Part shown: in pieces, positions 34,538 through 52,635 of the stretch
Layout of the letters: each line of letters begins with the position of its first letter
Position numbering within the stretch: the stretch's first letter is position 1
NCBI GenBank assembly: GCA_023473585.1
Contig: JAMCYU010000004.1
Coordinates: 1,682 to 65,681, forward strand
DNA length: 64,000 nucleotides
From: Patescibacteria group bacterium
GTDB taxonomy: Bacteria > Patescibacteriota > Microgenomatia > JAMCYU01
Reading direction: 5' to 3'
Notes under the pieces: generated by a model
Databases searched by the model: none
What the model was told of the DNA's origin: nothing
Seen by the model: the letters and a program-made list of their open reading frames with translations, nothing else
Program-made: the position numbers and the translations under genes

Positions 34538-35887
34538 ATGAATCAAACAAAGCTAAAAGTAAACAAAAAAACAAAATATCTGCCGATTATAGGTTTGGAG
34601 ATTCATGTGGAGTTGAAAACCAAGTCCAAGATGTTTTGTGGCTGTTCGGCCGATTATTTTGGTCATGAACCCAACAGCCAGTGTTGTCCGATTTGTTTGG
34701 GTTTGCCGGGAGCCTTACCTTTTCCTAACAAAAAAGCGATTAGAGACTGTTTAGTAATCGGCCTGGCCTTAGATTGTCAGGTTGTCGAGACTTCGCAATT
34801 TGACCGGAAAAACTATTTTTATCCGGATTTAGCCAAGGGTTTTCAGATTTCCCAATACGCAAACCCCTTTTGTCTTAACGGAAAATTGGGAGAAATTCGG
34901 ATTCGTCGGGTCCACATGGAAGAAGACACCGGCAAGCTTTTACACGCCCAAGAAGGGACACTGATTGATTTTAATAGAAGCGGCGTGCCTTTGGTGGAGA
35001 TTGTGACCGAGCCCGATCTTCATACCGCTTCGGAGGCTAAAATTTTCCTGCAAAAACTTCAGCAAATCATCCGTTACTTAGGCGTTTCTGATGCGGATAT
35101 GGAAAAGGGGAGTATGCGTTTGGAACCGAATATTTCCTTAATAAAGACCAATACTACCAATAAATACCAATTACCAAGTTATAAAGTCGAGGTTAAAAAT
35201 ATCAATTCTTTTAAGTTTGTCGAAAAGGCCATTAATTTTGAAATTGAAAGACAACAGGCATTATTGGAAAAAGGCGAGGTTATTCATCAGGAAACCAGAA
35301 GATTTGACGCCGATAAAGGTTTAACGCTCCCCCAGCGGAGTAAAGAGGAGGCTAAAGATTATCGCTATTTTCCGGAACCGGATATTCCGCCCATCAAATG
35401 GACAAAAGAAGAAATTAACAATCTTAAAAATAAAATCCCGGAATTACCGGAAACCAAACTTAAGCGCTTTATAAAAGAGTACGGGCTTTCGGAGTATGAC
35501 GCCACGATTTTGACGGTTTCCCTAGCGGTTGCCGATTATTTTGAAGAAAGTATTAAGTATTTAGTATCAAGTATTGAGTCTAAAGAGATAACGCCAAAAA
35601 TCATTGCCAATTGGCTTATTAATAAAAAAGTTGATATTGATAAAAACTCACCAGAAGATTTAGTAGAAATGATTGCTCAAAAAAGTCAACAAGCAACAAT
35701 TTCTGACGAAGAACTGGAAAAAGCGACGCTAAAAGTTTTGCTTGACAATCCAAAGGCGGTCAGCGATTATAAAGCGGGTAAAGAGCAGGCCTTAATGTTT
35801 TTGGTCGGTCAGGTTTTAAAAATGGTTAAAGGTCAGGCCAGCGGGGAAGAGATTAAAACATTAATAAAAGAGGAGCTTATAAAATGA
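34538..35887 (+). CDS. gatB: Asp/Glu-tRNA amidotransferase subunit B
   Basis: IGLEIHVELKTKSKMFCGC N-terminus and C-terminal YqeY-like domain. Confidence 0.9.
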   Translation: MNQTKLKVNKKTKYLPIIGLEIHVELKTKSKMFCGCSADYFGHEPNSQCCPICLGLPGALPFPNKKAIRDCLVIGLALDCQVVETSQFDRKNYFYPDLAKGFQISQYANPFCLNGKLGEIRIRRVHMEEDTGKLLHAQEGTLIDFNRSGVPLVEIVTEPDLHTASEAKIFLQKLQQIIRYLGVSDADMEKGSMRLEPNISLIKTNTTNKYQLPSYKVEVKNINSFKFVEKAINFEIERQQALLEKGEVIHQETRRFDADKGLTLPQRSKEEAKDYRYFPEPDIPPIKWTKEEINNLKNKIPELPETKLKRFIKEYGLSEYDATILTVSLAVADYFEESIKYLVSSIESKEITPKIIANWLINKKVDIDKNSPEDLVEMIAQKSQQATISDEELEKATLKVLLDNPKAVSDYKAGKEQALMFLVGQVLKMVKGQASGEEIKTLIKEELIK

Positions 35888-36570
35888 CGGAACAAAACGC
35901 TGAAATTTCTCATGGAAAAAGTATCCCAGAAAGACAAAAACATATTAAAGATCGAATCGATCAAACTAAAAAGTGGCTTGTTGGTTTAAGACAACAAACT
36001 CAAGAAGGTCAATTATCTTGGGAGCAATACGATCATTTAATCGCTAGGGCGATGGTTGCCAGGGAAAGATACGCTGACCTTTCAAGGAGACATTCCCTTA
36101 TAGACAGACTAACGCAAATTCCTAATCGAAGATGGTTAGACTTGGAAATCCAAAGAGAGACGGAAGAAGCCAAGCGTTCCGGACAACCCCTAGGCCTTTT
36201 AATTATAGACATTGATCATTTTAAAAGGATAAACGACCTTCATGGTCACCCTAAAGGTGACCAAGTTTTGCAAGAAACTGCGCGAACTTTACAACAATAT
36301 TCTCGGGCTGAAGATTTTTTAGCCAGATACGGCGGCGAAGAATTTGCCGTTTTAGTTATTAATTCTCAACCGGAAAAACTTTCGGAGATTGCCGAACGGT
36401 TGCGTTTGCAAATAGAAAGATTACAAATAGAAGGTATCTCGCCGCTAACCATCAGCCTGGGTGGCACGTCATTTAAAAAAGGAGAACAAATTAAAGATTT
36501 TTTTGCGAGAGCCGACAATGCCTTATATCAGTCAAAAGAACGCGGAAGAAATAAAGTAACAATTTCTTAA
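35884..36570 (+). CDS. GGDEF-domain diguanylate cyclase (no sensor domain)
   Basis: RYGGEEFAV (GGEEF active site) and DIDHFKRINDLHGH. Confidence 0.75.
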   Translation: MTEQNAEISHGKSIPERQKHIKDRIDQTKKWLVGLRQQTQEGQLSWEQYDHLIARAMVARERYADLSRRHSLIDRLTQIPNRRWLDLEIQRETEEAKRSGQPLGLLIIDIDHFKRINDLHGHPKGDQVLQETARTLQQYSRAEDFLARYGGEEFAVLVINSQPEKLSEIAERLRLQIERLQIEGISPLTISLGGTSFKKGEQIKDFFARADNALYQSKERGRNKVTIS

Positions 36571-45820: not shown

Positions 45821-45891
45821 ATACTTTCATTAACCGCCCCCACCAAATCTTCCCCTTGACAAGGGTTGGAATAATCTCCTATACTTAAATC

Positions 45892-45916
45892 CCAGAGCCA
45901 CCGCTCTGGTTTTTTT
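45892..45916 (+). terminator. rho-independent terminator after the atp operon
   Basis: ccagagc-cacc-gctctgg followed by ttttttt. Confidence 0.6.
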
Positions 45917-45921
45917 AATAT

Positions 45922-47544
45922 ATGGAACAACAACATTACGTTAAGGTTTCTTCGTATGAAGGAAGAAAAGGAGAGGTTCGGAGAGTTATTCTTCTTTATT
46001 CCGGTGGATTAGATACCTCGGTCATGCTTAGGTGGATTCAAAATGAATATAAAGCCAAAGTAATTGCCTTAACCATTGATATTGGTCAGCAAACTGATAA
46101 TCTGGAAGAAATCAAAAAGAAAGCCCTAAAGCTTGGAGCTATTAAAGCTTATATTATTGACGCCAAAAATGAATTTGCCGACGATTATATCTCTAAAGGA
46201 ATTAAAGCTAACGCTCATTATCAGGGCAAGTATTATTTGAGTACGCCTTTAGGCAGGCCGCTTTTAGCTAAGTGGGCGGTGCAAATTGCTCAACAAGAGG
46301 AGGCCGATTGTTTTGCTCATGGTTGTACCGGAAAAGGGAATGATCAAGTAAGACTTGAAGGAACAGCTTTAACCTTAAATCCTGACATAAAAATTATTGC
46401 TCCGGTGCGAGAATGGAGTATGGGAAGAGACGAAGAGTTGATTTACGCCAAAAAGCATGGAATTCAGGTTAAACAAACCGTAGCCCGTCCTTATTCTTAT
46501 GATGACAATATGTGGGGAGTAACTGGAGAGTCGGGTGAGATAGAAAATCCGGCTCTTATCCCTCCTCTGGAGAAAATTTTGCAAGTTTGCCAACTTCCTG
46601 AAAAAGCTCCTAACCAACCAGAATTTATTAGCCTTGAATTTGTTAAGGGTTTACCGGTTGCACTTAATGGGGAAAATTATAAACTTGTCGATTTAATTAT
46701 CAAACTCAACAAAATTGGAGCAAAACACGGAGTAGGAATTACCCATCATCTTGAAGACAGAGTGGTAGGACTCAAGGTAAGAGGAATTTACGAGGCGCCG
46801 GCGGCTGAGATAATTATTACTGCTCATTGGAGTTTGGAAAAATATGTTTCCAGCAGAACGGAGAATGAGTTCAAGGAAATTATTGATGAACGCTGGGGAT
46901 ATCTTTGTTATGGAGGATTATGGTATGAACCGTTGATGGAAGACTTAAATGCCTATATTGATAAGGTTAACGAAAAAGTAACAGGAAAAGTGACACTGAA
47001 ACTATATAAAGGGACGGCTATTGTGGTTGCTCTAGAAACTCCCAACACCATTTTTGATGAAAAATTAGCGACCTTCATGAAGTCGGCGGCTTTTAATCAA
47101 AATGCTAGTTCGGGCTTTATTGAAATTTATACTTTACAAATGAGACTAGCTCAACAGGCAGAAAAAACGGCCCTTCTGGCTATTGGAGAAATGATTGATA
47201 AAAAGCGACTTTCGCCAGCGGCGCAAAAACTCACAGAATTAAAATATAAACTTTACGCTACTCCGAAAACTCACTTTTTCCTTAAAGAGATTGGAATTCC
47301 CAGTATTATGGTTTACAAGATCAGTCAAAAAGGAGAGCCTAATCTTTTAGACCAGTTGGTGCAAAAGAGATTCGACTTAATTATTAATATTCCGCATGGT
47401 GGCAAAGTTAAAAAAGAAATGACCGACGGTAAAATCATTCGTCAAAAAGCGATTGAGACCGGAACGACCTTAATTACAGAATCCGAAGTAGCCGAACATC
47501 TGGTTGAAAAACTTTATCACGCGAAATTCGGTAAAAAACAATGA
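45922..47544 (+). CDS. argG: argininosuccinate-synthase-like PP-loop ATP pyrophosphatase fused to a C-terminal MGS-like domain
   Basis: PP-loop VILLYSGGLDTS; ArgG-like for about 400 aa. The extra C-terminal 120 aa (LKEIGIPS...ISQ...DLIINIPHG) resemble the methylglyoxal-synthase-like allosteric domain of CPSase. Confidence 0.65.
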   Translation: MEQQHYVKVSSYEGRKGEVRRVILLYSGGLDTSVMLRWIQNEYKAKVIALTIDIGQQTDNLEEIKKKALKLGAIKAYIIDAKNEFADDYISKGIKANAHYQGKYYLSTPLGRPLLAKWAVQIAQQEEADCFAHGCTGKGNDQVRLEGTALTLNPDIKIIAPVREWSMGRDEELIYAKKHGIQVKQTVARPYSYDDNMWGVTGESGEIENPALIPPLEKILQVCQLPEKAPNQPEFISLEFVKGLPVALNGENYKLVDLIIKLNKIGAKHGVGITHHLEDRVVGLKVRGIYEAPAAEIIITAHWSLEKYVSSRTENEFKEIIDERWGYLCYGGLWYEPLMEDLNAYIDKVNEKVTGKVTLKLYKGTAIVVALETPNTIFDEKLATFMKSAAFNQNASSGFIEIYTLQMRLAQQAEKTALLAIGEMIDKKRLSPAAQKLTELKYKLYATPKTHFFLKEIGIPSIMVYKISQKGEPNLLDQLVQKRFDLIINIPHGGKVKKEMTDGKIIRQKAIETGTTLITESEVAEHLVEKLYHAKFGKKQ

Positions 47545-48965
47545 AGTCGATTTTAATTAAAAACGCTGATTATTTGGTGACGATGGATAAAGACCGGCAT
47601 GTTTTAAGAAACAGTTCGGTTTACATTGAGCCTCCAAAGATTGTTAAAATTGGTGGTCTTGGACAAAAAGCCGACAGGATAATTGATGCTAAAGGAAAAA
47701 TCGTTTTCCCTGGTTTTATTAATACCCACCTTCACACGCCGCAAGTTTTTCATCGACATTGTCCGGCACAACAAAACAAACCGATCGACCAATGGATACA
47801 AATTACCACTTCGATTAACAGAGAAATTGATGAAGAGTCTATGTATTTGGGGGCACTTATTTGCTTTGCTGAATTGATATATTCAGGTGTAACGACTACT
47901 TCCGATTATTTTTACCCTTATCCAAAGGGGAAAGAAAAAATTAACGAATCAACAATTAAAGCAGCCCAAAAAATTGGCTTACGCTTTACCAGTATTAGGG
48001 GAAGCATGACCTTGAGTCGTAAAGATGGTGCTCATTATCCTGACGATGTGGTTGAAACTAGCGAAGAAATTGTCGAGAGAAGCCAGCGGTTTATTGAAAA
48101 ATATCATGATAATTCGCCTTTTTCGATGATACGAATTGGTATTGGTCCATGTCTTCCTTTTGCCAGTACCCAAAAAGATTTCCAAAATGCCGCCGCCTTA
48201 GCAAGAAAATATCGAGGAGTAATTCTACAGACACATGCCGCAGAGTCTTTATGGGAAGCCGAATACACTCGAGAAAAATTTGGCGTTTCACCAATTGGCT
48301 TAATGGAAAAAACGGGTTTTTTAGGGAAAGACGTTGGTTTAGCACACTGTAACGTTTGTAATGATTCCGAAATAGATTTGCTTGCCGAAACGAGGACCAA
48401 CGTTATTATTACGCCGGTCTGTAATACTCGTGATGCCGCTGATGGAAATTTAATTGCCCCGATAAATAAACTACTGGCAAAAAAAATAAATATTTCTATT
48501 GGAACCGATGGGCCAGCCAGTAATGACTCAATGAACTTTTTAGAAGAGATGCGTTATTTACGGGTTGTTTCGATGGGGAAGCTTGGTTTGGATTATCTTT
48601 CTCCTTCAAAAGTTTTTGATATAGGGACTTTAGGAGGAGCTAAAACGCTCAATAGGCAAGACATTGGTTCAATAGAAGAGGGGAAAGCGGCCGATTTAGT
48701 AGTTTTTAATCCCGAAGATGAATTAAACCATGCTGGGGCAATCAATAAATGGGGGGCCCTAATCTCTTGTCAAGCAATTAAACCAGAATATGTAATAATT
48801 AACGGGCAAGTAATCGTTGATAAAAAAGAACTCATAACCTTAAATTTAAACACGGCCCTAAAAAAATTCCAAAAGCGACATCACGTGGTGATAAAAAGGG
48901 CTCAACAAAAATTAGCATGGAATTTAAACGAATATTCTTTTTGGGAGCGTTCAATTTGGAGTTGA
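47541..48965 (+). CDS. metal-dependent amidohydrolase (cytosine/guanine/MTA-deaminase-like, ATZ/TRZ/SsnA family)
   Basis: GFINTHLHTPQ (HxH), HAAES, TDGPASN (Asp). Confidence 0.7.
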   Translation: MKSILIKNADYLVTMDKDRHVLRNSSVYIEPPKIVKIGGLGQKADRIIDAKGKIVFPGFINTHLHTPQVFHRHCPAQQNKPIDQWIQITTSINREIDEESMYLGALICFAELIYSGVTTTSDYFYPYPKGKEKINESTIKAAQKIGLRFTSIRGSMTLSRKDGAHYPDDVVETSEEIVERSQRFIEKYHDNSPFSMIRIGIGPCLPFASTQKDFQNAAALARKYRGVILQTHAAESLWEAEYTREKFGVSPIGLMEKTGFLGKDVGLAHCNVCNDSEIDLLAETRTNVIITPVCNTRDAADGNLIAPINKLLAKKINISIGTDGPASNDSMNFLEEMRYLRVVSMGKLGLDYLSPSKVFDIGTLGGAKTLNRQDIGSIEEGKAADLVVFNPEDELNHAGAINKWGALISCQAIKPEYVIINGQVIVDKKELITLNLNTALKKFQKRHHVVIKRAQQKLAWNLNEYSFWERSIWS

Positions 48966-48967
48966 AG

Positions 48968-50131
48968 ATGATGAAATCTAAAGACAGATCAGGACCTACA
49001 CCTCCCGCTACCGATCATATGGAATTCACGATCACTGATCAATGTGGATTAATTGCTGCTGGAAAGGCCTGTCCCGGTTGTACTGCCATTAACGTTCAGA
49101 ATCGAGGACAAAGAGAACCACAAATGGATGCCTCTAAAATTATTTCCACCTTGGAAAAAGACGCAGCCAATGGCGTTAATTTATTTACCCTTCAAGGTGG
49201 GGAGCCGCTAACCGTTAAGGGTATTCATCAAATTCTGCGCTATTTATCCCAATCACCCAAAATTGATGCGTTAGTTTACACCTCGTCATATGGTTTAATT
49301 ACCAAAGAAGGTAAATTTACGGATTCATTTTTTAAACTTAAAGCGGCTGGTTTTTTGAAGCTTTATCTTTTGGCTAGTGTTGACAAATTAATTCTGAAAG
49401 AGACTGATATTATCAGAAACGACGGTAGTGCTTTTAAATCATTTTATGGACTTAAATTAATGGAGGCTTTGGCTAAAGAAGGATATCGTGATATCGGCAT
49501 TCATCAAACATTAAGATCGGACAATTTAAAATATTCGCTTGATCTTTATAAATGGGCTAGTGAAAGAAATCTTTTATATTCTTGTTGTCCATTAGTTTGG
49601 AAGCCTTATACCAGTAGAAAAAGAAATAAGATTCCTTTGGAAAATTTTTCCAACAGGTTGACTAATAAAAATAAACCTAAATTACGGAAAATTATCAATT
49701 ACCTGGTAGAGACAGAAACAAAAAGATTGAAAAAGGGATTGCCAAGAACCATTGTTCCTTCTTCGGCATTCTTAAGGCTGATTCCGGAATTTGCCCCTAA
49801 TAATCTTATAAGTTGCAGAGAATACAGAAACATGATTAGGCCATTGATGGGACGGGATATTGCGCCGGATGGCAAGGAAAGGTGGTGCGCCGCCCAAGAC
49901 ACCTATCAAGATGCTTTAGTCTGTCAGGGTTGCCATTATATTTGTCTTGATAGAGGGACTCCAGGTGAATATTGGAATTTTGAGCATTTGGCAGGAAGAT
50001 TGAAAGCAGAAGATATTCGTTGGCAGAACTATATTGTTTCAAGAAAAGTACCCGGTTTTGATCAATCTAGAAGAAATCTAATCTTTTATCAAAAATCGCC
50101 CACAGAAGAAAAAGATTTTTTCCAAGCTTAA
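48968..50131 (+). CDS. radical-SAM-like protein with a non-canonical Cys motif and an additional C-terminal Cys cluster
   Basis: ITDQCGLIAAGKACPGC (CX8CX2C instead of CX3CX2C) and LQGGEPL (SAM glycine motif). C-terminal CX12CX2CX3C. Confidence 0.45.
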   Translation: MMKSKDRSGPTPPATDHMEFTITDQCGLIAAGKACPGCTAINVQNRGQREPQMDASKIISTLEKDAANGVNLFTLQGGEPLTVKGIHQILRYLSQSPKIDALVYTSSYGLITKEGKFTDSFFKLKAAGFLKLYLLASVDKLILKETDIIRNDGSAFKSFYGLKLMEALAKEGYRDIGIHQTLRSDNLKYSLDLYKWASERNLLYSCCPLVWKPYTSRKRNKIPLENFSNRLTNKNKPKLRKIINYLVETETKRLKKGLPRTIVPSSAFLRLIPEFAPNNLISCREYRNMIRPLMGRDIAPDGKERWCAAQDTYQDALVCQGCHYICLDRGTPGEYWNFEHLAGRLKAEDIRWQNYIVSRKVPGFDQSRRNLIFYQKSPTEEKDFFQA

Positions 50132-50152
50132 TTTAATAAGGAGGTAACGCGT

Positions 50153-50989
50153 ATGTCTAAAATCGATCGCTTAAATAAGCAGCCTTCACGGGAAGACGTT
50201 CTTCCTTATATCTGGTTATTGCCAGAAAGAAATGATGTTTTTTCACCCATGCAAATTAACGTTATCCTGGCTTCCTTAACAAGGCTTAGGGATAAAAATA
50301 CCGATGTTAGCACCTTCAGACATCATGTTGGTCATTTGACCGATTATCTTCTTCAGGCGATGCTCAAATTAAAAATCATCAAGACAAAAATAATAACTCC
50401 GCTTATGAAAAAAACTGAAGGTTGGGAGTTTGAGGCGCCGGTAGTCATATTTTTTATTAACCGCGCGGGCTTAACCATGGGTTTATCGGCGGCTAGAGAT
50501 TTACCCTACGGTACTCCAATCGGAGAATTTGACGTTCATCGAGATGAAAAAAATCTTGAGGGAATTTTGGAAGATTATAATCTTCCTCCGGATATTTCCG
50601 GGAAAACGGTTTTAATCCTTGATCCCATGAATGCTGCCGGTGGTTCAATTGAGTGTGTCTGGCAAGTAATCAAAAAAGAATATCTGGAAAAAAGGAAGCA
50701 AAAAATCGCCGGTGTTAAAATAGGCAACCTTATTTCGGCTCCATTAGGAGTGGCGGAGTTAAAAAGAATTATTCCCGAAGCGGAAATTTTTACCGTTTCT
50801 TTAGATGAATATTTAACTCAACCGGGAGAAACAAAATTTCCTCCGGGCTACATTATTCCCGGTTTAGGTGATGCCGGTGACCGTCAATTTGGTCATGGAC
50901 GTTCGGAGCTTTTTTTAGGTGCCCAAAAAATGCTTGATAGTTTTGTTAACTTTAAAGATCCCTCCAGAATTAGATTGATAAGGAAATAG
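50153..50989 (+). CDS. upp: uracil-phosphoribosyltransferase-family protein with an about 70-aa N-terminal extension
   Basis: VLILDPMNAAGGS (PRPP-binding) and the C-terminal GYIIPGLGDAGDRQFG Upp signature. Confidence 0.7.
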   Translation: MSKIDRLNKQPSREDVLPYIWLLPERNDVFSPMQINVILASLTRLRDKNTDVSTFRHHVGHLTDYLLQAMLKLKIIKTKIITPLMKKTEGWEFEAPVVIFFINRAGLTMGLSAARDLPYGTPIGEFDVHRDEKNLEGILEDYNLPPDISGKTVLILDPMNAAGGSIECVWQVIKKEYLEKRKQKIAGVKIGNLISAPLGVAELKRIIPEAEIFTVSLDEYLTQPGETKFPPGYIIPGLGDAGDRQFGHGRSELFLGAQKMLDSFVNFKDPSRIRLIRK

Positions 50990-51012
50990 CTTTTTGCTAA
51001 TTTAAATCGAAT

Positions 51013-52635
51013 ATGACAAAATTCATCTTTATTTCCGGCGGGGTTATTTCCGGTGTCGGCAAGGGCGTGACAACGGCCTCAATCGCCCTTCTTCTTAAAT
51101 CCGCCGGTTTAAAAGTTTCGCCGATTAAAATCGACATGTATTTAAACATTGACGCCGGAACGATCAGGCCCCAGGAGCACGGCGAAATTTTTGTGACTGA
51201 CGATGGCCTGGAAACAGACGAAGACATCGGTCACTACGAACGCTTTCTTAATGAATCGCTGAATCGGACCCATTATATTACGACAGGCCAGATCTACCAG
51301 GAAGTTATACGCAAAGAAAGGGCTTTTGAGTATAAAGGCGAAGACGTTGAGGCGATACCTCATGTGACGGACGAGATTATCAGAAGAATTAAAGTTTGCG
51401 GCGAAAAAAACAAAGCCGATGTGGTTTTGATTGAGTTAGGAGGAACAGTCGGCGAATATCAAAACTCCATTTTCTTCGAGGCCAACCGAATCATGAAGCT
51501 CAAAAACCCCAATGACGTTTTTCACCTTCACGTTGCTTATCTACCGCTTTTAGCTTCGGTGGGAGAGTTAAAATCAAAACCAGTTCAGACGTCAGTTCAT
51601 ATTCTAAATTCCCTAGGCATCCAGCCTGATTTTTTAGTTGCCCGTTCCGAGAAGAAAATTGACAAGAAAAGACTGGAAAGACTGGCGCTGTTTTGTAATT
51701 TAAATGAAGAAGAGATTATTGACAACCCAGATTTTAAAAGTATCTACGAGGTGCCCCTAAACTTTGAAAGACAAAATTTCAGCCGAAAGATTCTTGCCAA
51801 ATTCGGAATTAAGAACAGAAAAGCTAATTTAAATGACTGGTGTCTCATGACCAATAAAATAGAAAATTCTCCTAAGGAAGTTAAGATTGCTTTGGTAGGT
51901 AAATATTTTATAACCGGCGATTATTTTTTAATGGATGCTTATGTTTCCGTGGTTGAAGCCTTAAAACATGCCGGCGCTTATTTGGGGGTGAAGCCTCTTA
52001 TTTCCTGGCTGGACAGCGAAGAGATCGAAAAAAAGGGGTCAGATATTTTAAAGAAATTTGACGCCATTTTGGTGCCTCAAGGATGGGGGAGTCGGGGAAT
52101 TGAGGGGAAAATTGAAGCGGTCAAATTTGCCAGAGAAAATAAAGTCCCCTATCTTGGGCTTTGTTTCGGGATGCAGATGGCGGTTGTGGAATTTGCCCGC
52201 AATGTCTGTCACTTAAAAGACGCCAATACCGGTGAGGCGGGCATAAAAACCGCAAACGAGGTTATTCATATTATGCCGGAACAAGAGGCCTATCTTCAAA
52301 AAAAACAATACGGCGGAACGATAAGGTTAGGTTCTTGGCCCTGCCAATTAGTCAAGGGTACGAAAACCGCTTTTTATTACGAAAAAGAAGCCAGAGATGG
52401 ACAAGTTTACGAACGGCATCGTCATCGTTATGAGTTTAACAATAAATATCGCGGGCTTATGGAGAAAAACGGCTTGATTATTGCCGGTTTGTCTCCTGAC
52501 GGGAAATTGGTTGAAGCCATCGAACTTGGCCTACATCCTTTTTTTATCGGGACGCAATTTCATCCGGAATATAAAAGCCGGCCTCTTTCGCCGCACCCTC
52601 TTTTTTTAGGTCTTTTAAAAGCGGCAGCTAAATGA
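51013..52635 (+). CDS. pyrG: CTP synthase
   Basis: FISGGVISGVGKG N-terminus and the GATase domain GLCFGMQ. Confidence 0.9.
   Translation: MTKFIFISGGVISGVGKGVTTASIALLLKSAGLKVSPIKIDMYLNIDAGTIRPQEHGEIFVTDDGLETDEDIGHYERFLNESLNRTHYITTGQIYQEVIRKERAFEYKGEDVEAIPHVTDEIIRRIKVCGEKNKADVVLIELGGTVGEYQNSIFFEANRIMKLKNPNDVFHLHVAYLPLLASVGELKSKPVQTSVHILNSLGIQPDFLVARSEKKIDKKRLERLALFCNLNEEEIIDNPDFKSIYEVPLNFERQNFSRKILAKFGIKNRKANLNDWCLMTNKIENSPKEVKIALVGKYFITGDYFLMDAYVSVVEALKHAGAYLGVKPLISWLDSEEIEKKGSDILKKFDAILVPQGWGSRGIEGKIEAVKFARENKVPYLGLCFGMQMAVVEFARNVCHLKDANTGEAGIKTANEVIHIMPEQEAYLQKKQYGGTIRLGSWPCQLVKGTKTAFYYEKEARDGQVYERHRHRYEFNNKYRGLMEKNGLIIAGLSPDGKLVEAIELGLHPFFIGTQFHPEYKSRPLSPHPLFLGLLKAAAK

What the first reader, a model, noticed from the sequence alone, without database searches (positions are those of the whole stretch)
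47541..52635. Cluster of amidohydrolase, non-canonical radical-SAM-like enzyme, N-extended UPRT-like protein and pyrG suggests a pyrimidine modification or salvage pathway
The 404-aa protein (48968-50131) has the SAM-binding GGEPL motif but CX8CX2C (C-GLIAAGKA-C-PG-C) in place of the canonical CX3CX2C, plus a C-terminal CX12CX2CX3C that could bind an auxiliary cluster. It is sandwiched between an ATZ/TRZ-type deaminase-like amidohydrolase and a Upp-family phosphoribosyltransferase bearing an unusual 70-aa N-terminal extension, followed by CTP synthase. Together these could convert or modify a pyrimidine or purine base (deaminate, radical-modify, phosphoribosylate).
Basis: partly seen in the sequence, partly recalled or inferred. 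Interest (0 to 1): 0.55.

Follow-up and report, generated by a model that had tools for sequence, protein, structure and literature searches.

The report
Radical SAM–deaminase cassette in pyrimidine operon
In a small group of Patescibacteria, a true but unusual radical SAM enzyme and an isocytosine/8-oxoguanine-type deaminase form a swappable two-gene cassette, always placed behind an argininosuccinate synthase fusion where sister species carry pyrD-pyrE-pyrF, so it may be an undescribed way of making pyrimidines.

Summary
The four genes exist as described. The middle protein (48968-50131, 387 aa) is a genuine radical SAM enzyme. Its three cluster cysteines are spaced CX8CX2C. It has GGEPL and four conserved C-terminal cysteines, and its more distant relatives carry the canonical CX3CX2C. 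Several details were wrong: the protein length, the C-terminal spacing (CX11, not CX12), and the "70-aa N-terminal extension" of the UPRT, which is about 30 aa.

This order holds in 17/17 loci for the pair and 13/13 for the triplet.

In 80 species with the ArgG-MGS fusion, two architectures follow it and exclude each other. One is a CodA-like amidohydrolase with PyrD/PyrE/PyrF. The other is this deaminase with the rSAM, often plus a PyrE-like PRTase. Two genomes about 94% identical in the flanks carry unrelated versions of the cassette.

The amidohydrolase keeps the isocytosine-deaminase pocket, whose product is uracil-type. My best reading is a pyrimidine-base-forming module that replaces PyrD/E/F and is possibly fed by argininosuccinate. 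This rests on comparative genomics only. I found nothing in the literature.

The parts
45856..45909 (+). Leader of the operon. It has a promoter-like site (TTGACA-18-TATACT, 11/12 matches, 45856-45885), followed at once by a GC hairpin plus T7 (45892-45909), 12 nt before the ArgG start. It may be an attenuator, or the atp operon terminator.
   Evidence: A hairpin plus T6-T9 run lies just upstream of ArgG-MGS in L064, L020 and L014, and more weakly in L016 and L002. No Rfam family matches here.
45922..47544 (+). ArgG-MGS fusion. The argininosuccinate synthase part is 45922-47166. The C-terminal MGS-like domain (47167-47541) resembles the allosteric domain of the carbamoyl-phosphate synthase large subunit. 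The stop codon overlaps the amidohydrolase start (ATGA).
   Evidence: NCBIfam argG scores 506 bits (cut-off 334) and 469 bits (cut-off 268). Pfam MGS hits at 1.9e-13, and the domain matches CarB positions 915-1050. The ArgG part is about 50% identical to T. thermophilus ArgG (1J1Z), with the citrulline- and aspartate-binding residues kept. The fusion occurs in more than 120 clusters and in at least 80 species representatives of Patescibacteria.
47541..48965 (+). Amidohydrolase of the 8-oxoguanine/isocytosine deaminase clade (called AH_ATZ here).
   Evidence: The best PDB matches are 3HPA (6.8e-96) and the isocytosine deaminase VCZ, 7WW2 (4.9e-83). The metal ligands, the HxxE motif and the VCZ pocket residues Q73, W90, Y130, M159, H234, E237, H271, D322 and S326 are conserved in the window and across 13 cassette loci, except S326, which is Gly in six of them (L016, L031, L045, L049, L064, L086), and M159 (Ile in L045, gap in L016). 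It scores below every NCBIfam equivalog cut-off (394 against 532).
48968..50131 (+). Divergent radical SAM enzyme, 387 aa, with a twitch-like C-terminal domain.
   Evidence: Only 8 homologues exist among 5.8 billion proteins and 9 representatives at E<1e-30 among 1.84 billion. A family profile hits SkfB at 9e-18 and MoaA at 3e-13 in the PDB. The AF2 model has pLDDT 88 and pTM 0.90, and Foldseek ranks CteB, BlsE (TM 0.55/0.63), SkfB, SuiB, MoaA and viperin on top.
49043..49081 (+). Cluster-binding loop C26-GLIAAGKA-C35-PG-C38 (CX8CX2C).
   Evidence: Relatives in the same gene context carry CX3CX2C (P0013, P0015-P0024, L016, L031, L045, L049, L064, L086), and P0008 has CX5CX2C. The window clade therefore carries a 5-residue insertion.
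49196..49210 (+). GGEPL SAM-binding motif.
   Evidence: G77 and G78 are invariant across the family.
49814..49933 (+). Four conserved C-terminal cysteines (C283, C307, C319, C322), the candidate ligands of an auxiliary [4Fe-4S] cluster.
   Evidence: They are invariant in the window clade. They are present in three of four family clades and lost in the clade of P0022, L031, L045, L049 and L086.
50153..50989 (+). Extended uracil phosphoribosyltransferase paralogue (Upp'), 278 aa.
   Evidence: PRK00129 scores 125 bits (cut-off 114), while TIGR01091 scores 125 bits (cut-off 208). The PRPP loop VLILDPMNAAGGS and the base loop YIIPGLGDAGDRQFG are conserved. It belongs to a discrete clade of 24 clusters. 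It also occurs without the cassette.
51013..52635 (+). CTP synthase PyrG.
   Evidence: NCBIfam PRK05380 scores 686 bits against a cut-off of 308.

Best explanation
The amidohydrolase (47541-48965) and the radical SAM enzyme (48968-50131) are a two-gene metabolic cassette. It works downstream of the ArgG-MGS fusion (45922-47544). It occupies the place that a CodA-like amidohydrolase plus PyrD, PyrE and PyrF hold in sister Patescibacteria. The most likely product is a free 2,4-dioxopyrimidine base, which a phosphoribosyltransferase (here Upp', 50153-50989) converts to a nucleotide. The UMP formed would then supply the UTP on which PyrG acts.

Proposed chemistry (inferred, not shown):
1. ArgG-MGS makes argininosuccinate from citrulline, aspartate and ATP. 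The CarB-type allosteric domain may put this step under nucleotide or ornithine control.
2. The guanidinosuccinate part closes to the known six-membered anhydride. That compound is dihydroorotate with an N-ornithyl imino group at C2.
3. The radical SAM enzyme abstracts a C5 hydrogen and oxidises the ring. In the window clade, which lacks the PyrE-like gene, this probably goes with loss of the C6 carboxylate, as in HemN- or MftC-type oxidative decarboxylation. The electron would leave through the auxiliary cluster.
4. The isocytosine-deaminase-like amidohydrolase hydrolyses the C2-N bond, releasing ornithine and leaving uracil (or orotate in the cassettes that carry a PyrE-like PRTase).

Shown: gene identities, the radical SAM fold and motifs, the conserved deaminase pocket, the strict gene linkage, the mutual exclusion with PyrD, and the cassette swap.

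Inferred: the substrate, the order of the two steps, and the product. The stated confidence is for the broad claim of a pyrimidine-base-forming replacement of PyrD/E/F. I give the detailed argininosuccinate route about 0.25.
For: 1. Linkage. AH_ATZ lies directly upstream of every family member found: the window, L001-L005, L008-L012, L016, L031, L045, L049, L064 and L086. The truncated upstream ORFs in L003, L004 and L008 are amidohydrolase C-termini. ArgG-MGS lies upstream in all 13 loci that extend far enough.
2. Mutual exclusion. Among 80 species-representative loci with ArgG-MGS, the counts are AH_ATZ with rSAM 6, AH_ATZ with PyrD 0, CodA-like AH (PRK06886 family) with PyrD 48, and CodA-like AH with an rSAM-like gene 1. 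Fisher p = 2.4e-7, not corrected for phylogeny.
3. Patchy distribution. On an ArgG-MGS tree the cassette appears in at least 4 separate places among PyrD-type lineages.
4. Cassette swap. L010 and L016 are 94% identical in DNA over ArgG-MGS and 90% over Upp'-PyrG. Between these flanks they carry unrelated versions: AH + CX8 rSAM (2.4 kb) against AH' + CX3 rSAM' + a PyrE-like PRTase (2.8 kb).
5. Pocket. AH_ATZ keeps the isocytosine/8-oxoguanine deaminase pocket, and enzymes of that clade convert isocytosine to uracil.
6. Downstream genes. The gene after the rSAM is usually a PRTase or a nucleoside phosphorylase. It is PyrE-like (TIGR00336, 84-97 bits) in L016, L031, L045, L049 and L086; Upp' in the window, L001 and L010; PNP in L005-7; and a Pribosyltran in L003. 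PyrG is adjacent in the window, L001, L010 and L016, and divergently placed in L045.
7. Sister architecture. The CodA-like AH is fused to DHO dehydrogenase in L035 and L062. ArgG-MGS directly precedes AH-PyrD-PyrE-PyrF in L013 and L017 among others.
8. ArgG function. ArgG keeps its substrate-binding residues, and a DDAH/arginine-dihydrolase-like gene lies next to ArgG-MGS in 31 of 80 loci, including the cassette locus L045.
9. Operon structure. The window genes overlap or are 2-23 bp apart.
Against: - There are no biochemical data. Everything rests on gene context.
- ArgG-MGS may simply be the arginine-biosynthetic enzyme. An ArgH-type lyase follows it in L043.
- Canonical CarA, CarB, PyrB (TIGR00670, 342 bits) and PyrC sit beside ArgG-MGS and the CodA-like AH in L020, with the same gene order in L021 and L039 (their PyrB/PyrC positions not family-checked) and CarA/CarB-sized ORFs in L026 and L028. 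CarAB precedes the cassette in L086. An argininosuccinate entry is therefore not needed everywhere.
- The Upp'-PyrG adjacency is lineage synteny.
- I could not test whether cassette genomes lack pyrD/E/F elsewhere. The window covers only 64 kb and shows none.
- One clade of the rSAM family lacks the auxiliary cysteines and has GGT in place of GGE.
- The Torokbacteria relative (L015) has lost the third cluster cysteine yet keeps the gene position.
- No OMP decarboxylase was seen in the cassettes that carry the PyrE-like gene.
Confidence: 0.42

Rival explanations
1. This is nucleobase salvage or detoxification with no link to ArgG. The amidohydrolase deaminates guanine, 8-oxoguanine or environmental isocytosine-like bases. 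The rSAM modifies or repairs a base or nucleoside. The genes sit together because nucleotide-metabolism genes cluster in these small genomes.
For: Enzymes of this clade deaminate 8-oxoguanine, guanine and isocytosine. The neighbours include purine PRTases, GuaA, an APRT-like protein and PNP in some loci. Upp'-PyrG synteny exists without the cassette.
Against: It does not explain the strict ArgG-MGS-AH-rSAM order, with overlapping or abutting genes, across lineages whose flanks otherwise differ. It does not explain the exclusion with PyrD/E/F. It does not explain why AH and rSAM are exchanged together as a unit.
Confidence: 0.22
2. The cassette acts on arginine, citrulline or argininosuccinate for a purpose other than pyrimidine synthesis. 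Examples are a catabolic or nitrogen-shuttling branch, or the making of a modified amino acid or guanidino compound.
For: ArgG is bona fide. DDAH/arginine-dihydrolase-like genes lie next to it in 31 of 80 loci. ATZ/TRZ-family enzymes can release alkylamines and hydrolyse acyclic amidines such as HutF substrates (one search lists these families).
Against: The pocket residues match a planar 2-amino-4-oxopyrimidine binder. The downstream genes are PRTases and PyrG. The equivalent position in sister genomes holds PyrD/E/F, and the CodA-like AH is fused to DHO dehydrogenase.
Confidence: 0.15
3. This is a 7-deazapurine- or pterin-type pathway. The rSAM acts like QueE or MoaA on a GTP-derived intermediate. 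The deaminase removes the 2-amino group, as isoxanthopterin or 8-oxoguanine deaminases do. The PRTase then loads the base.
For: QueE also has variable cluster-loop insertions, and MoaA and QueE appear among the fold and profile hits. The deaminase clade accepts fused-ring 2-amino-4-oxopyrimidines.
Against: No FolE, QueD, QueC or MoaC genes were found among the neighbours I checked. The QueC signal in ArgG is only the PP-loop. SkfB, CteB and BlsE rank above QueE. The context is pyrimidine, not purine.
Confidence: 0.07
4. This is a by-product clean-up pair. The amidohydrolase is a 5'-deoxyadenosine or MTA deaminase that removes the rSAM by-product. The function of the rSAM is unrelated to its neighbours.
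For: The NCBIfam 5'-deoxyadenosine deaminase model hits at 227 bits. PNP follows the rSAM in L005-7.
Against: The score is far below the cut-off (522) and below the 8-oxoguanine deaminase model (394). The nearest adenosine-type structure, 4F0R, scores only 105 bits against 325 for 3HPA. The pocket is of the isocytosine type.
Confidence: 0.04
5. The rSAM is a peptide (RiPP) maturase like SkfB or CteB.
For: The top fold and profile matches are sactipeptide maturases.
Against: The 2-bp and 21-bp spacers leave no room for a precursor gene. There is no RRE domain, protease or transporter. All conserved partners are small-molecule enzymes. The similarity is at the level of the generic rSAM/twitch fold (TM about 0.5).
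Confidence: 0.02

Closest known systems
Radical SAM enzymes with twitch/SPASM auxiliary-cluster domains (SkfB 6EFN, CteB 5WGG, BlsE 7VOB, MoaA 1TV7)
   Same: It has a partial TIM-barrel fold, a three-Cys cluster loop after beta-1, a GGE motif and a Cys-rich C-terminal extension. Profile E-values are 9e-18 (SkfB) and 3e-13 (MoaA). BlsE gives the best TM-score (0.55/0.63) and is itself a decarboxylase acting on a pyrimidine nucleoside acid.
   Different: Sequence identity is only 12-18%. The cluster loop is CX8CX2C in this clade. The Pfam Radical_SAM score is below the gathering cut-off (17.6 against 29.5), and the NCBIfam twitch model scores 28 against 170. The family has no characterised member. 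Its fixed partners, ArgG-MGS and a deaminase, are not known for any of these enzymes.
Radical SAM enzymes with non-canonical cluster spacing (HmdB CX5CX2C, QueE CX14CX2C)
   Same: An insertion lies between the first and second cluster cysteine while the CX2C end is kept. One family member, P0008, has CX5CX2C.
   Different: There is no specific homology to HmdB or QueE. QueE ranked only 17th in the first fold search. The insertion is a clade-specific five-residue addition to an otherwise canonical family.
8-oxoguanine deaminase / isocytosine deaminase (Pa0142-type 3HPA; VCZ 7WW2)
   Same: The match covers the full length at E 7e-96 and 5e-83. The metal ligands, HxHxxQ, HxxE and the VCZ base-binding residues are identical.
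   Different: It scores below the NCBIfam equivalog cut-off (394 against 532). VCZ F88 is replaced by Asp, Glu or Ala, and S326 by Gly in the non-window clades. It is always operonic with ArgG-MGS and an rSAM. No natural source of isocytosine-type substrates is known for the characterised enzymes (PMC6186785, PMC10481359).
Canonical pyr operon steps PyrC-PyrD-PyrE-PyrF
   Same: The cassette holds the same position after ArgG-MGS and before Upp and PyrG. A PyrE-like PRTase is kept in most cassettes.
   Different: There is no DHO dehydrogenase and no OMP decarboxylase. An rSAM and a deaminase-type, not DHOase-type, amidohydrolase stand in their place.
HemN / MftC-type radical SAM oxidative decarboxylation; BtrN/anSME dehydrogenation
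   Same: The proposed chemistry is H-abstraction beta to a carboxylate or next to a heteroatom, followed by loss of an electron through an auxiliary cluster.
   Different: This is an analogy of mechanism only. No specific sequence relationship was found. BtrN hit at E 4e-4 and HemN did not hit at all.

Membership tests
Radical SAM superfamily | Three-cysteine [4Fe-4S] loop after beta-1 (canonically CX3CX2C) | tested here: met
   C26, C35 and C38 are conserved. The spacing is CX8CX2C in the window clade, CX5CX2C in P0008 and CX3CX2C in the other clades. The one Tyr variant is a single-base difference.
Radical SAM superfamily | GGE SAM-binding motif | tested here: met
   GGEPL is at residues 77-81, and G77/G78 are invariant in 27 sequences. 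One clade has GGT.
Radical SAM superfamily | Partial (beta/alpha)6 TIM-barrel fold | tested here: met
   The AF2 model has pLDDT 88 and pTM 0.90. All of the top 47 Foldseek PDB hits (E<=1e-3) are radical SAM enzymes.
Radical SAM superfamily | Pfam PF04055 gathering score | tested here: not met
   The score is 17.6 bits against 29.5. A family profile nevertheless reaches 9e-18 against SkfB, so the low score reflects divergence.
Radical SAM superfamily | Reductive cleavage of SAM to a 5'-deoxyadenosyl radical | not testable with these tools
   This needs anaerobic reconstitution.
Twitch/SPASM subgroup | C-terminal Cys motif binding an auxiliary [4Fe-4S] cluster | tested here: inconclusive
   Four cysteines (283, 307, 319, 322) are conserved in 3 of 4 clades and lost in one. 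NF033640 scores 28 bits against 170. The best fold matches are twitch/SPASM enzymes.
8-oxoguanine/isocytosine deaminase clade of the amidohydrolase superfamily | HxH, His, His and Asp metal ligands plus the HxxE catalytic motif | tested here: met
   H63, H65, H232, E235, H269 and D323 are invariant in 13 cassette amidohydrolases.
8-oxoguanine/isocytosine deaminase clade of the amidohydrolase superfamily | Base-binding residues of VCZ (Q73, W90, Y130, M159, S326) | tested here: met
   All are conserved in the window protein. Q73, W90 and Y130 are invariant in all 13 cassette loci; M159 is Ile in L045 and falls in a gap in L016; S326 is Gly in the other clades. F88 is changed to Asp, Glu, Ala or Thr.
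8-oxoguanine/isocytosine deaminase clade of the amidohydrolase superfamily | NCBIfam NF006055 equivalog cut-off | tested here: not met
   The score is 394 bits against 532.
Argininosuccinate synthase (ArgG) | Equivalog score and citrulline/aspartate-binding residues | tested here: met
   NF001770 scores 506 against 334 and TIGR00032 scores 469 against 268. Y84, T88, R92, T116, N120, D121, R124, S173, E184, E258 and Y270 of 1J1Z are conserved, with S182 changed to Thr. The residue list is from my own knowledge.
Uracil phosphoribosyltransferase (Upp) | PRPP loop, uracil loop and family score | tested here: inconclusive
   Both motifs are conserved. PRK00129 scores 125 against 114 (met). TIGR01091 scores 125 against 208 (not met). 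It is a distinct extended clade of 24 clusters.
CTP synthase (PyrG) | Equivalog score and two-domain architecture | tested here: met
   PRK05380 scores 686 against 308. Both CTP_synth_N and GATase domains are present.
RiPP maturase (sactisynthase-like) | Adjacent precursor peptide and RRE domain | tested here: not met
   The spacers of 2 and 21 bp hold no small ORF. The neighbours are metabolic enzymes.

The most novel reading that the evidence does not exclude
Many Patescibacteria may feed pyrimidine synthesis from arginine or citrulline. In this reading, ArgG fused to a CarB-type allosteric domain makes argininosuccinate. Its guanidinosuccinate moiety is cyclised, and a deaminase-type amidohydrolase strips off the ornithine. 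The product is dihydroorotate in the common route (CodA-like AH, then PyrD/E/F). In the window's lineage, an isocytosine-deaminase-like enzyme and a radical SAM oxidative decarboxylase would give uracil directly. That would bypass ATCase, DHOase, DHODH, OPRT and OMP decarboxylase. It would also give a natural origin for isocytosine-type metabolites.
Probability: 0.25. Interest if true: 0.92.

Novelty: new variant of a known kind. Interest (0 to 1): 0.66.

Why it matters
De novo UMP synthesis is among the most conserved pathways known, and no radical SAM enzyme has a role in it. If this cassette replaces PyrD/E/F, it would be a new branch of central metabolism. If ArgG-MGS really feeds it, the branch would also have a new entry point.

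It would help explain how ultra-small, host-dependent Patescibacteria make nucleotides. It would assign a physiological substrate to the "isocytosine deaminases" used in prodrug therapy. It would also add a new radical SAM reaction.

Even on the conservative reading, three things are defined here:
- an uncharacterised rSAM family with a natural CX3-to-CX8 loop variation;
- a strict two-enzyme co-inheritance;
- a widespread ArgG-CarB-allosteric-domain fusion embedded in pyr operons.

All of these can be tested directly by complementing E. coli pyr auxotrophs.

Tried and rejected
- A scan of GTDB genome contigs with the rSAM alignment failed. The first attempt had no conserved stretch to search with, and the second found no relative. 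The window genome and its nearest kin are not species representatives. The family was reached instead through the MGS domain of ArgG.
- The first AF2 model, built from 8 sequences, was poor (pLDDT 66). A 21-sequence alignment fixed this.
- Seven literature searches on ArgG, MGS, pyrimidines, CPR and radical SAM found nothing relevant. The GapMind 2026 preprint was checked and is irrelevant.
- I rejected the idea that Upp' is a cassette-specific component. It occurs with PyrG right after the atp operon without the cassette.
- I rejected the idea that ArgG-MGS universally replaces CarAB/PyrB. Canonical CarA, CarB, PyrB and PyrC co-occur with it in L020, with matching gene order in L021 and L039.
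- I rejected the RiPP maturase and 5'-deoxyadenosine deaminase readings (see the rival explanations).
- I rejected P0003's Tyr26 as evidence against the first cysteine. It is a single G->A change relative to L010.
- I looked for ArgH by the fumarate-lyase signature. An ArgH-type sequence was found next to ArgG-MGS only in L043.
- I looked for pyrB/C/D/E/F, carAB, DDAH and argH in the window and found none, but 64 kb is not decisive.
- Rfam found no riboswitch in 40-56 kb, only two tRNAs.

Full report
**What is in the window.** From 45922 to 52635 five + strand genes are packed with overlaps or gaps of 2-23 bp.
- ArgG fused to a C-terminal MGS-like domain (45922-47544). The argG equivalog models score 506 and 469 bits, above their cut-offs. 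The MGS part matches the allosteric domain of the carbamoyl-phosphate synthase large subunit.
- A 474-aa ATZ/TRZ-type amidohydrolase (47541-48965).
- A 387-aa protein with weak radical SAM signals (48968-50131).
- A 278-aa UPRT-like protein (50153-50989).
- CTP synthase (51013-52635).

Upstream lies the atp operon. Downstream lie rplS and a YraN-family gene. The organism is a Patescibacterium: P0001 and P0247 are 100% identical NCBI proteins from a "Patescibacteria group bacterium".

**Checking the observation.** The CX8CX2C motif (C26-GLIAAGKA-C35-PG-C38) and GGEPL are there. Three details need correcting.
- The stated coordinates encode 387 aa, not 404. The 404-aa ORF begins at 48917, inside the amidohydrolase. 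The NCBI model, a GGAG ribosome-binding site and the homologue alignment all favour 48968.
- The C-terminal spacing is CX11CX2CX3C. The last cysteine is not conserved, whereas C283 is.
- The UPRT-like protein has about 30 extra residues at the N-terminus, about 28 at the C-terminus and two short inserts. It does not have a 70-aa N-terminal extension.

**Is the middle protein a radical SAM enzyme?** Yes. The family is extremely rare. There are 8 homologues among 5.8 billion clustered proteins, and 9 representatives at E<1e-30 among 1.84 billion.
- More distant members (P0013, P0015-P0024) carry the canonical CX3CX2C. They hit many radical SAM/SPASM models.
- A 27-sequence profile finds SkfB at 9e-18, MoaA at 3e-13, and PqqE, GDGT-MAS, BlsE, BtrN and viperin in the PDB.
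- With 21 sequences AlphaFold gives pLDDT 88 and pTM 0.90. All significant Foldseek matches are radical SAM enzymes. CteB, BlsE (best TM, 0.55/0.63), SkfB, SuiB, MoaA and viperin rank on top.
- C26, C35, C38, G77 and G78 are invariant across the family. The single Tyr at position 26 (P0003/L009) is TAC against TGC in the near-identical L010.

The window clade is therefore a canonical family that gained a five-residue insertion in the cluster loop. One member has CX5CX2C. Four C-terminal cysteines (283, 307, 319, 322) are conserved in three of four clades. This fits a twitch-like auxiliary cluster. The clade of P0022, L031, L045, L049 and L086 has lost them and has GGT in place of GGE.

**The conserved neighbourhood.** In every locus that carries a family member, the ATZ-type amidohydrolase is the gene immediately upstream. 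These loci are the window, L001-L005, L008-L012, L016, L031, L045, L049, L064 and L086. The truncated upstream ORFs of L003, L004 and L008 are amidohydrolase C-termini.

In all 13 loci that extend further, ArgG-MGS precedes the amidohydrolase. L045 has a DDAH-like gene in between. What lies beyond varies:
- atp operon;
- integrase and polysaccharide genes;
- seryl-tRNA synthetase;
- CarAB.

Downstream, UPRT-like and PyrG follow only in the window, L001, L010 and L016. Other loci have a PyrE-like PRTase of about 211 aa (TIGR00336, 84-97 bits, cut-off 107), PNP, other PRTases, or unrelated genes.

The extended Upp' is a discrete clade of 24 clusters. In L096 and L098/99 it sits with PyrG directly after atpC, with no ArgG, amidohydrolase or rSAM. 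The real module is ArgG-MGS, the amidohydrolase and the rSAM, usually followed by a phosphoribosyltransferase.

**The wider pattern.** The ArgG-MGS fusion is widespread in Patescibacteria. More than 120 clusters have at least 69% identity. A search with the MGS domain retrieved 80 species-representative loci. I annotated these by BLAST against seeds and checked the seeds with Pfam and NCBIfam. Two architectures follow the fusion.
- Architecture A has about 64 loci. It carries an amidohydrolase of about 325 aa from the NCBIfam PRK06886 family, which is related to cytosine deaminase CodA. A DDAH/arginine-dihydrolase-like gene often precedes it. DHO dehydrogenase, PyrE and PyrF follow, and sometimes Upp and PyrG as well (L017).
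- Architecture B has 6 loci plus the metagenomic ones. It carries the ATZ-type amidohydrolase, the rSAM and usually the PyrE-like PRTase.

The counts are:

| Amidohydrolase type | Partner in the locus | Loci |
|---|---|---|
| ATZ-type | rSAM | 6 |
| ATZ-type | PyrD | 0 |
| PRK06886-type | PyrD | 48 |
| PRK06886-type | rSAM-like | 1 |
| PRK06886-type | neither | 15 |
| none | PyrD or neither | 10 |

Seven of the 10 loci without an amidohydrolase have little or no downstream sequence. Fisher p is 2.4e-7, without phylogenetic correction. On an ArgG-MGS tree, architecture B appears in at least four separate places among A lineages. The rSAM clades do not follow the ArgG tree.

L010 and L016 give the clearest evidence. 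They are 94% identical in DNA across ArgG-MGS and the first 190 nt of the amidohydrolase gene. They are 90% identical across Upp'-PyrG. The 2.4-2.8 kb between these flanks share no detectable DNA similarity. L010 has the amidohydrolase plus the CX8 rSAM. L016 has a 42%-identical amidohydrolase, a CX3 rSAM of another clade and the PyrE-like PRTase. The two enzymes are therefore inherited and exchanged as one functional unit.

**What the partners say about chemistry.** The amidohydrolase is closest to the 8-oxoguanine deaminase structure 3HPA (7e-96) and to the isocytosine deaminase VCZ, 7WW2 (5e-83). The VCZ paper lists the residues that hold the uracil/isocytosine ring: Q73, W90, L91, Y130, H234, E237, H271, D322 and S326, with M159 at the CodA Gln157 position (PMC10481359). 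All are conserved in the window protein, with Leu91 as Ile. Most are invariant in 13 cassette amidohydrolases. The exceptions are M159 (Ile in L045, a gap in L016) and S326, which becomes Gly outside the window clade. F88 is replaced by Asp, Glu, Ala or Thr.

[quoted passage not shown] The expected product is thus a 2,4-dioxopyrimidine ring.

ArgG keeps the residues that I recall as binding citrulline and aspartate in T. thermophilus ArgG. It probably makes argininosuccinate. In architecture A the CodA-like amidohydrolase is fused to DHO dehydrogenase in two species (L035 and L062). That ties it to the dihydroorotate step.

**Proposed mechanism (inference).** Argininosuccinate is known to cyclise to a six-membered anhydride. 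This is established chemistry from the argininosuccinic aciduria literature, cited from my own knowledge. That compound is dihydroorotate with an N-ornithyl imino group in place of the C2 oxygen. It is therefore a dihydro-isocytosine derivative.

A deaminase-type amidohydrolase that hydrolyses the exocyclic C2-N bond would release ornithine. Relatives such as AtzB release alkylamines in this way. The product would be dihydroorotate in route A.

In route B the rSAM would oxidise the ring by abstracting a hydrogen at C5. In the window clade, which has no PyrE-like gene, this probably goes with loss of the C6 carboxylate, as in HemN or MftC. The isocytosine-deaminase-like enzyme would then give uracil, and Upp' would give UMP. 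From UMP the cell would make the UTP that PyrG converts to CTP.

The CarB-type allosteric domain on ArgG would put the committed step under nucleotide or ornithine control. A promoter-like site followed at once by a hairpin and T7 lies just before the ArgG start (45856-45909). Similar hairpin-T runs occur in L064, L020 and L014. That hints at attenuation.

**Caveats.**
- Canonical CarA, CarB, PyrB and PyrC sit beside ArgG-MGS and the CodA-like amidohydrolase in L020. L021 and L039 show the same gene order. CarAB precedes the cassette in L086. The argininosuccinate entry would then be parallel to the canonical one, not a universal replacement.
- An ArgH-type lyase follows ArgG-MGS in L043.
- No OMP decarboxylase was seen in the cassettes that have a PyrE-like gene.
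- I could not check whole genomes for pyrD/E/F. The 64-kb window has none, and also lacks carAB, pyrB, pyrC, DDAH and argH.
- The Torokbacteria locus (L015/L067) pairs the CodA-like amidohydrolase with a degenerate relative of the rSAM. That relative keeps CX8C but lacks the third cysteine and the GGE motif. I cannot explain this.
- Seven literature searches found no description of the fusion, the cassette or such a pathway.

**Verdict.** The radical SAM assignment is sound.

I put 0.42 on [quoted passage not shown]. I put about 0.25 on the specific argininosuccinate route. As it stands, the thing is a new, uncharacterised variant within known superfamilies. If the pathway reading holds, it would be categorically new central metabolism.

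Noticed in passing
window 45856-45909; also L064, L020, L014, L016 and L002 just upstream of ArgG-MGS: A strong promoter-like site is followed at once by a GC hairpin plus a T6-T9 run, within about 7-45 nt of the ArgG-MGS start codon. This recurs in several distant lineages. It could be a leader attenuator of the nucleotide-sensing kind, or in the window it could be the atp operon terminator.
   Followed up: partly
L014:9589-12090, L024, L025, L043, L047, L077: An asparagine synthetase A / AsnRS-core-like domain is fused to a second CarB-type MGS domain. In L014 it is also fused to DHO dehydrogenase (833 aa). It sits between the CodA-like amidohydrolase and the pyrD-type gene. An enzyme that activates the aspartate beta-carboxylate inside a pyr operon is unexplained. 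It could drive ring closure.
   Followed up: partly
L035:11304-13517 and L062:11257-13404: Continuous ORFs of 737 and 715 aa fuse the PRK06886 (CodA-like) amidohydrolase to a DHO-dehydrogenase-like domain.
   Followed up: yes
31 of 80 ArgG-MGS loci (e.g. L045:6327-7136, L015:4838-5626): A DDAH / arginine-dihydrolase-like protein of about 270 aa (NF045659, 219-275 bits, cut-off 300) lies directly after ArgG-MGS in 26 of the 80 loci and within the locus in 5 more (upstream of it in L015). This suggests that arginine is the source of the citrulline.
   Followed up: partly
L015:9882-10886 and L067 (Torokbacteria): A degenerate relative of the rSAM family follows ArgG-MGS and a PRK06886-type amidohydrolase. 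It keeps CX8C but has no third cluster cysteine, and it has GGNFED in place of GGEP. It may be a non-radical derivative.
   Followed up: partly
L018:12877-14157 and L077:15958-17268: An aspartase/fumarase-type lyase (GSSIMPGKVNP, 426-436 aa) follows the DHO-dehydrogenase-like gene, and in L018 it lies between that gene and pyrF.
   Followed up: no
L016-L095 record titles: Many of the GTDB species-representative MAGs that carry the Patescibacteria-type ArgG-MGS locus are titled 'uncultured Gammaproteobacteria bacterium'. Others are titled Sulfotelmatobacter, Acidiferrales or Limisphaerales. These are probably mislabelled or mis-binned records.
   Followed up: no
window 35884-36570: A stand-alone GGDEF diguanylate cyclase (228 aa) lies between gatB and dnaE in an otherwise housekeeping stretch.
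   Followed up: no
L064:6491-7678 (- strand): A fusion of nucleoside 2-deoxyribosyltransferase and thymidylate kinase (395 aa) lies close to a cassette locus.
   Followed up: no
L011:3795-4634, L012 and L045:10511-11458: A protein of 279-315 aa follows the cassette. Only a faint UPRTase signal is detectable (Pfam 3.8e-8 in L045; no hit in L011). It looks like a very divergent PRTase.
   Followed up: partly
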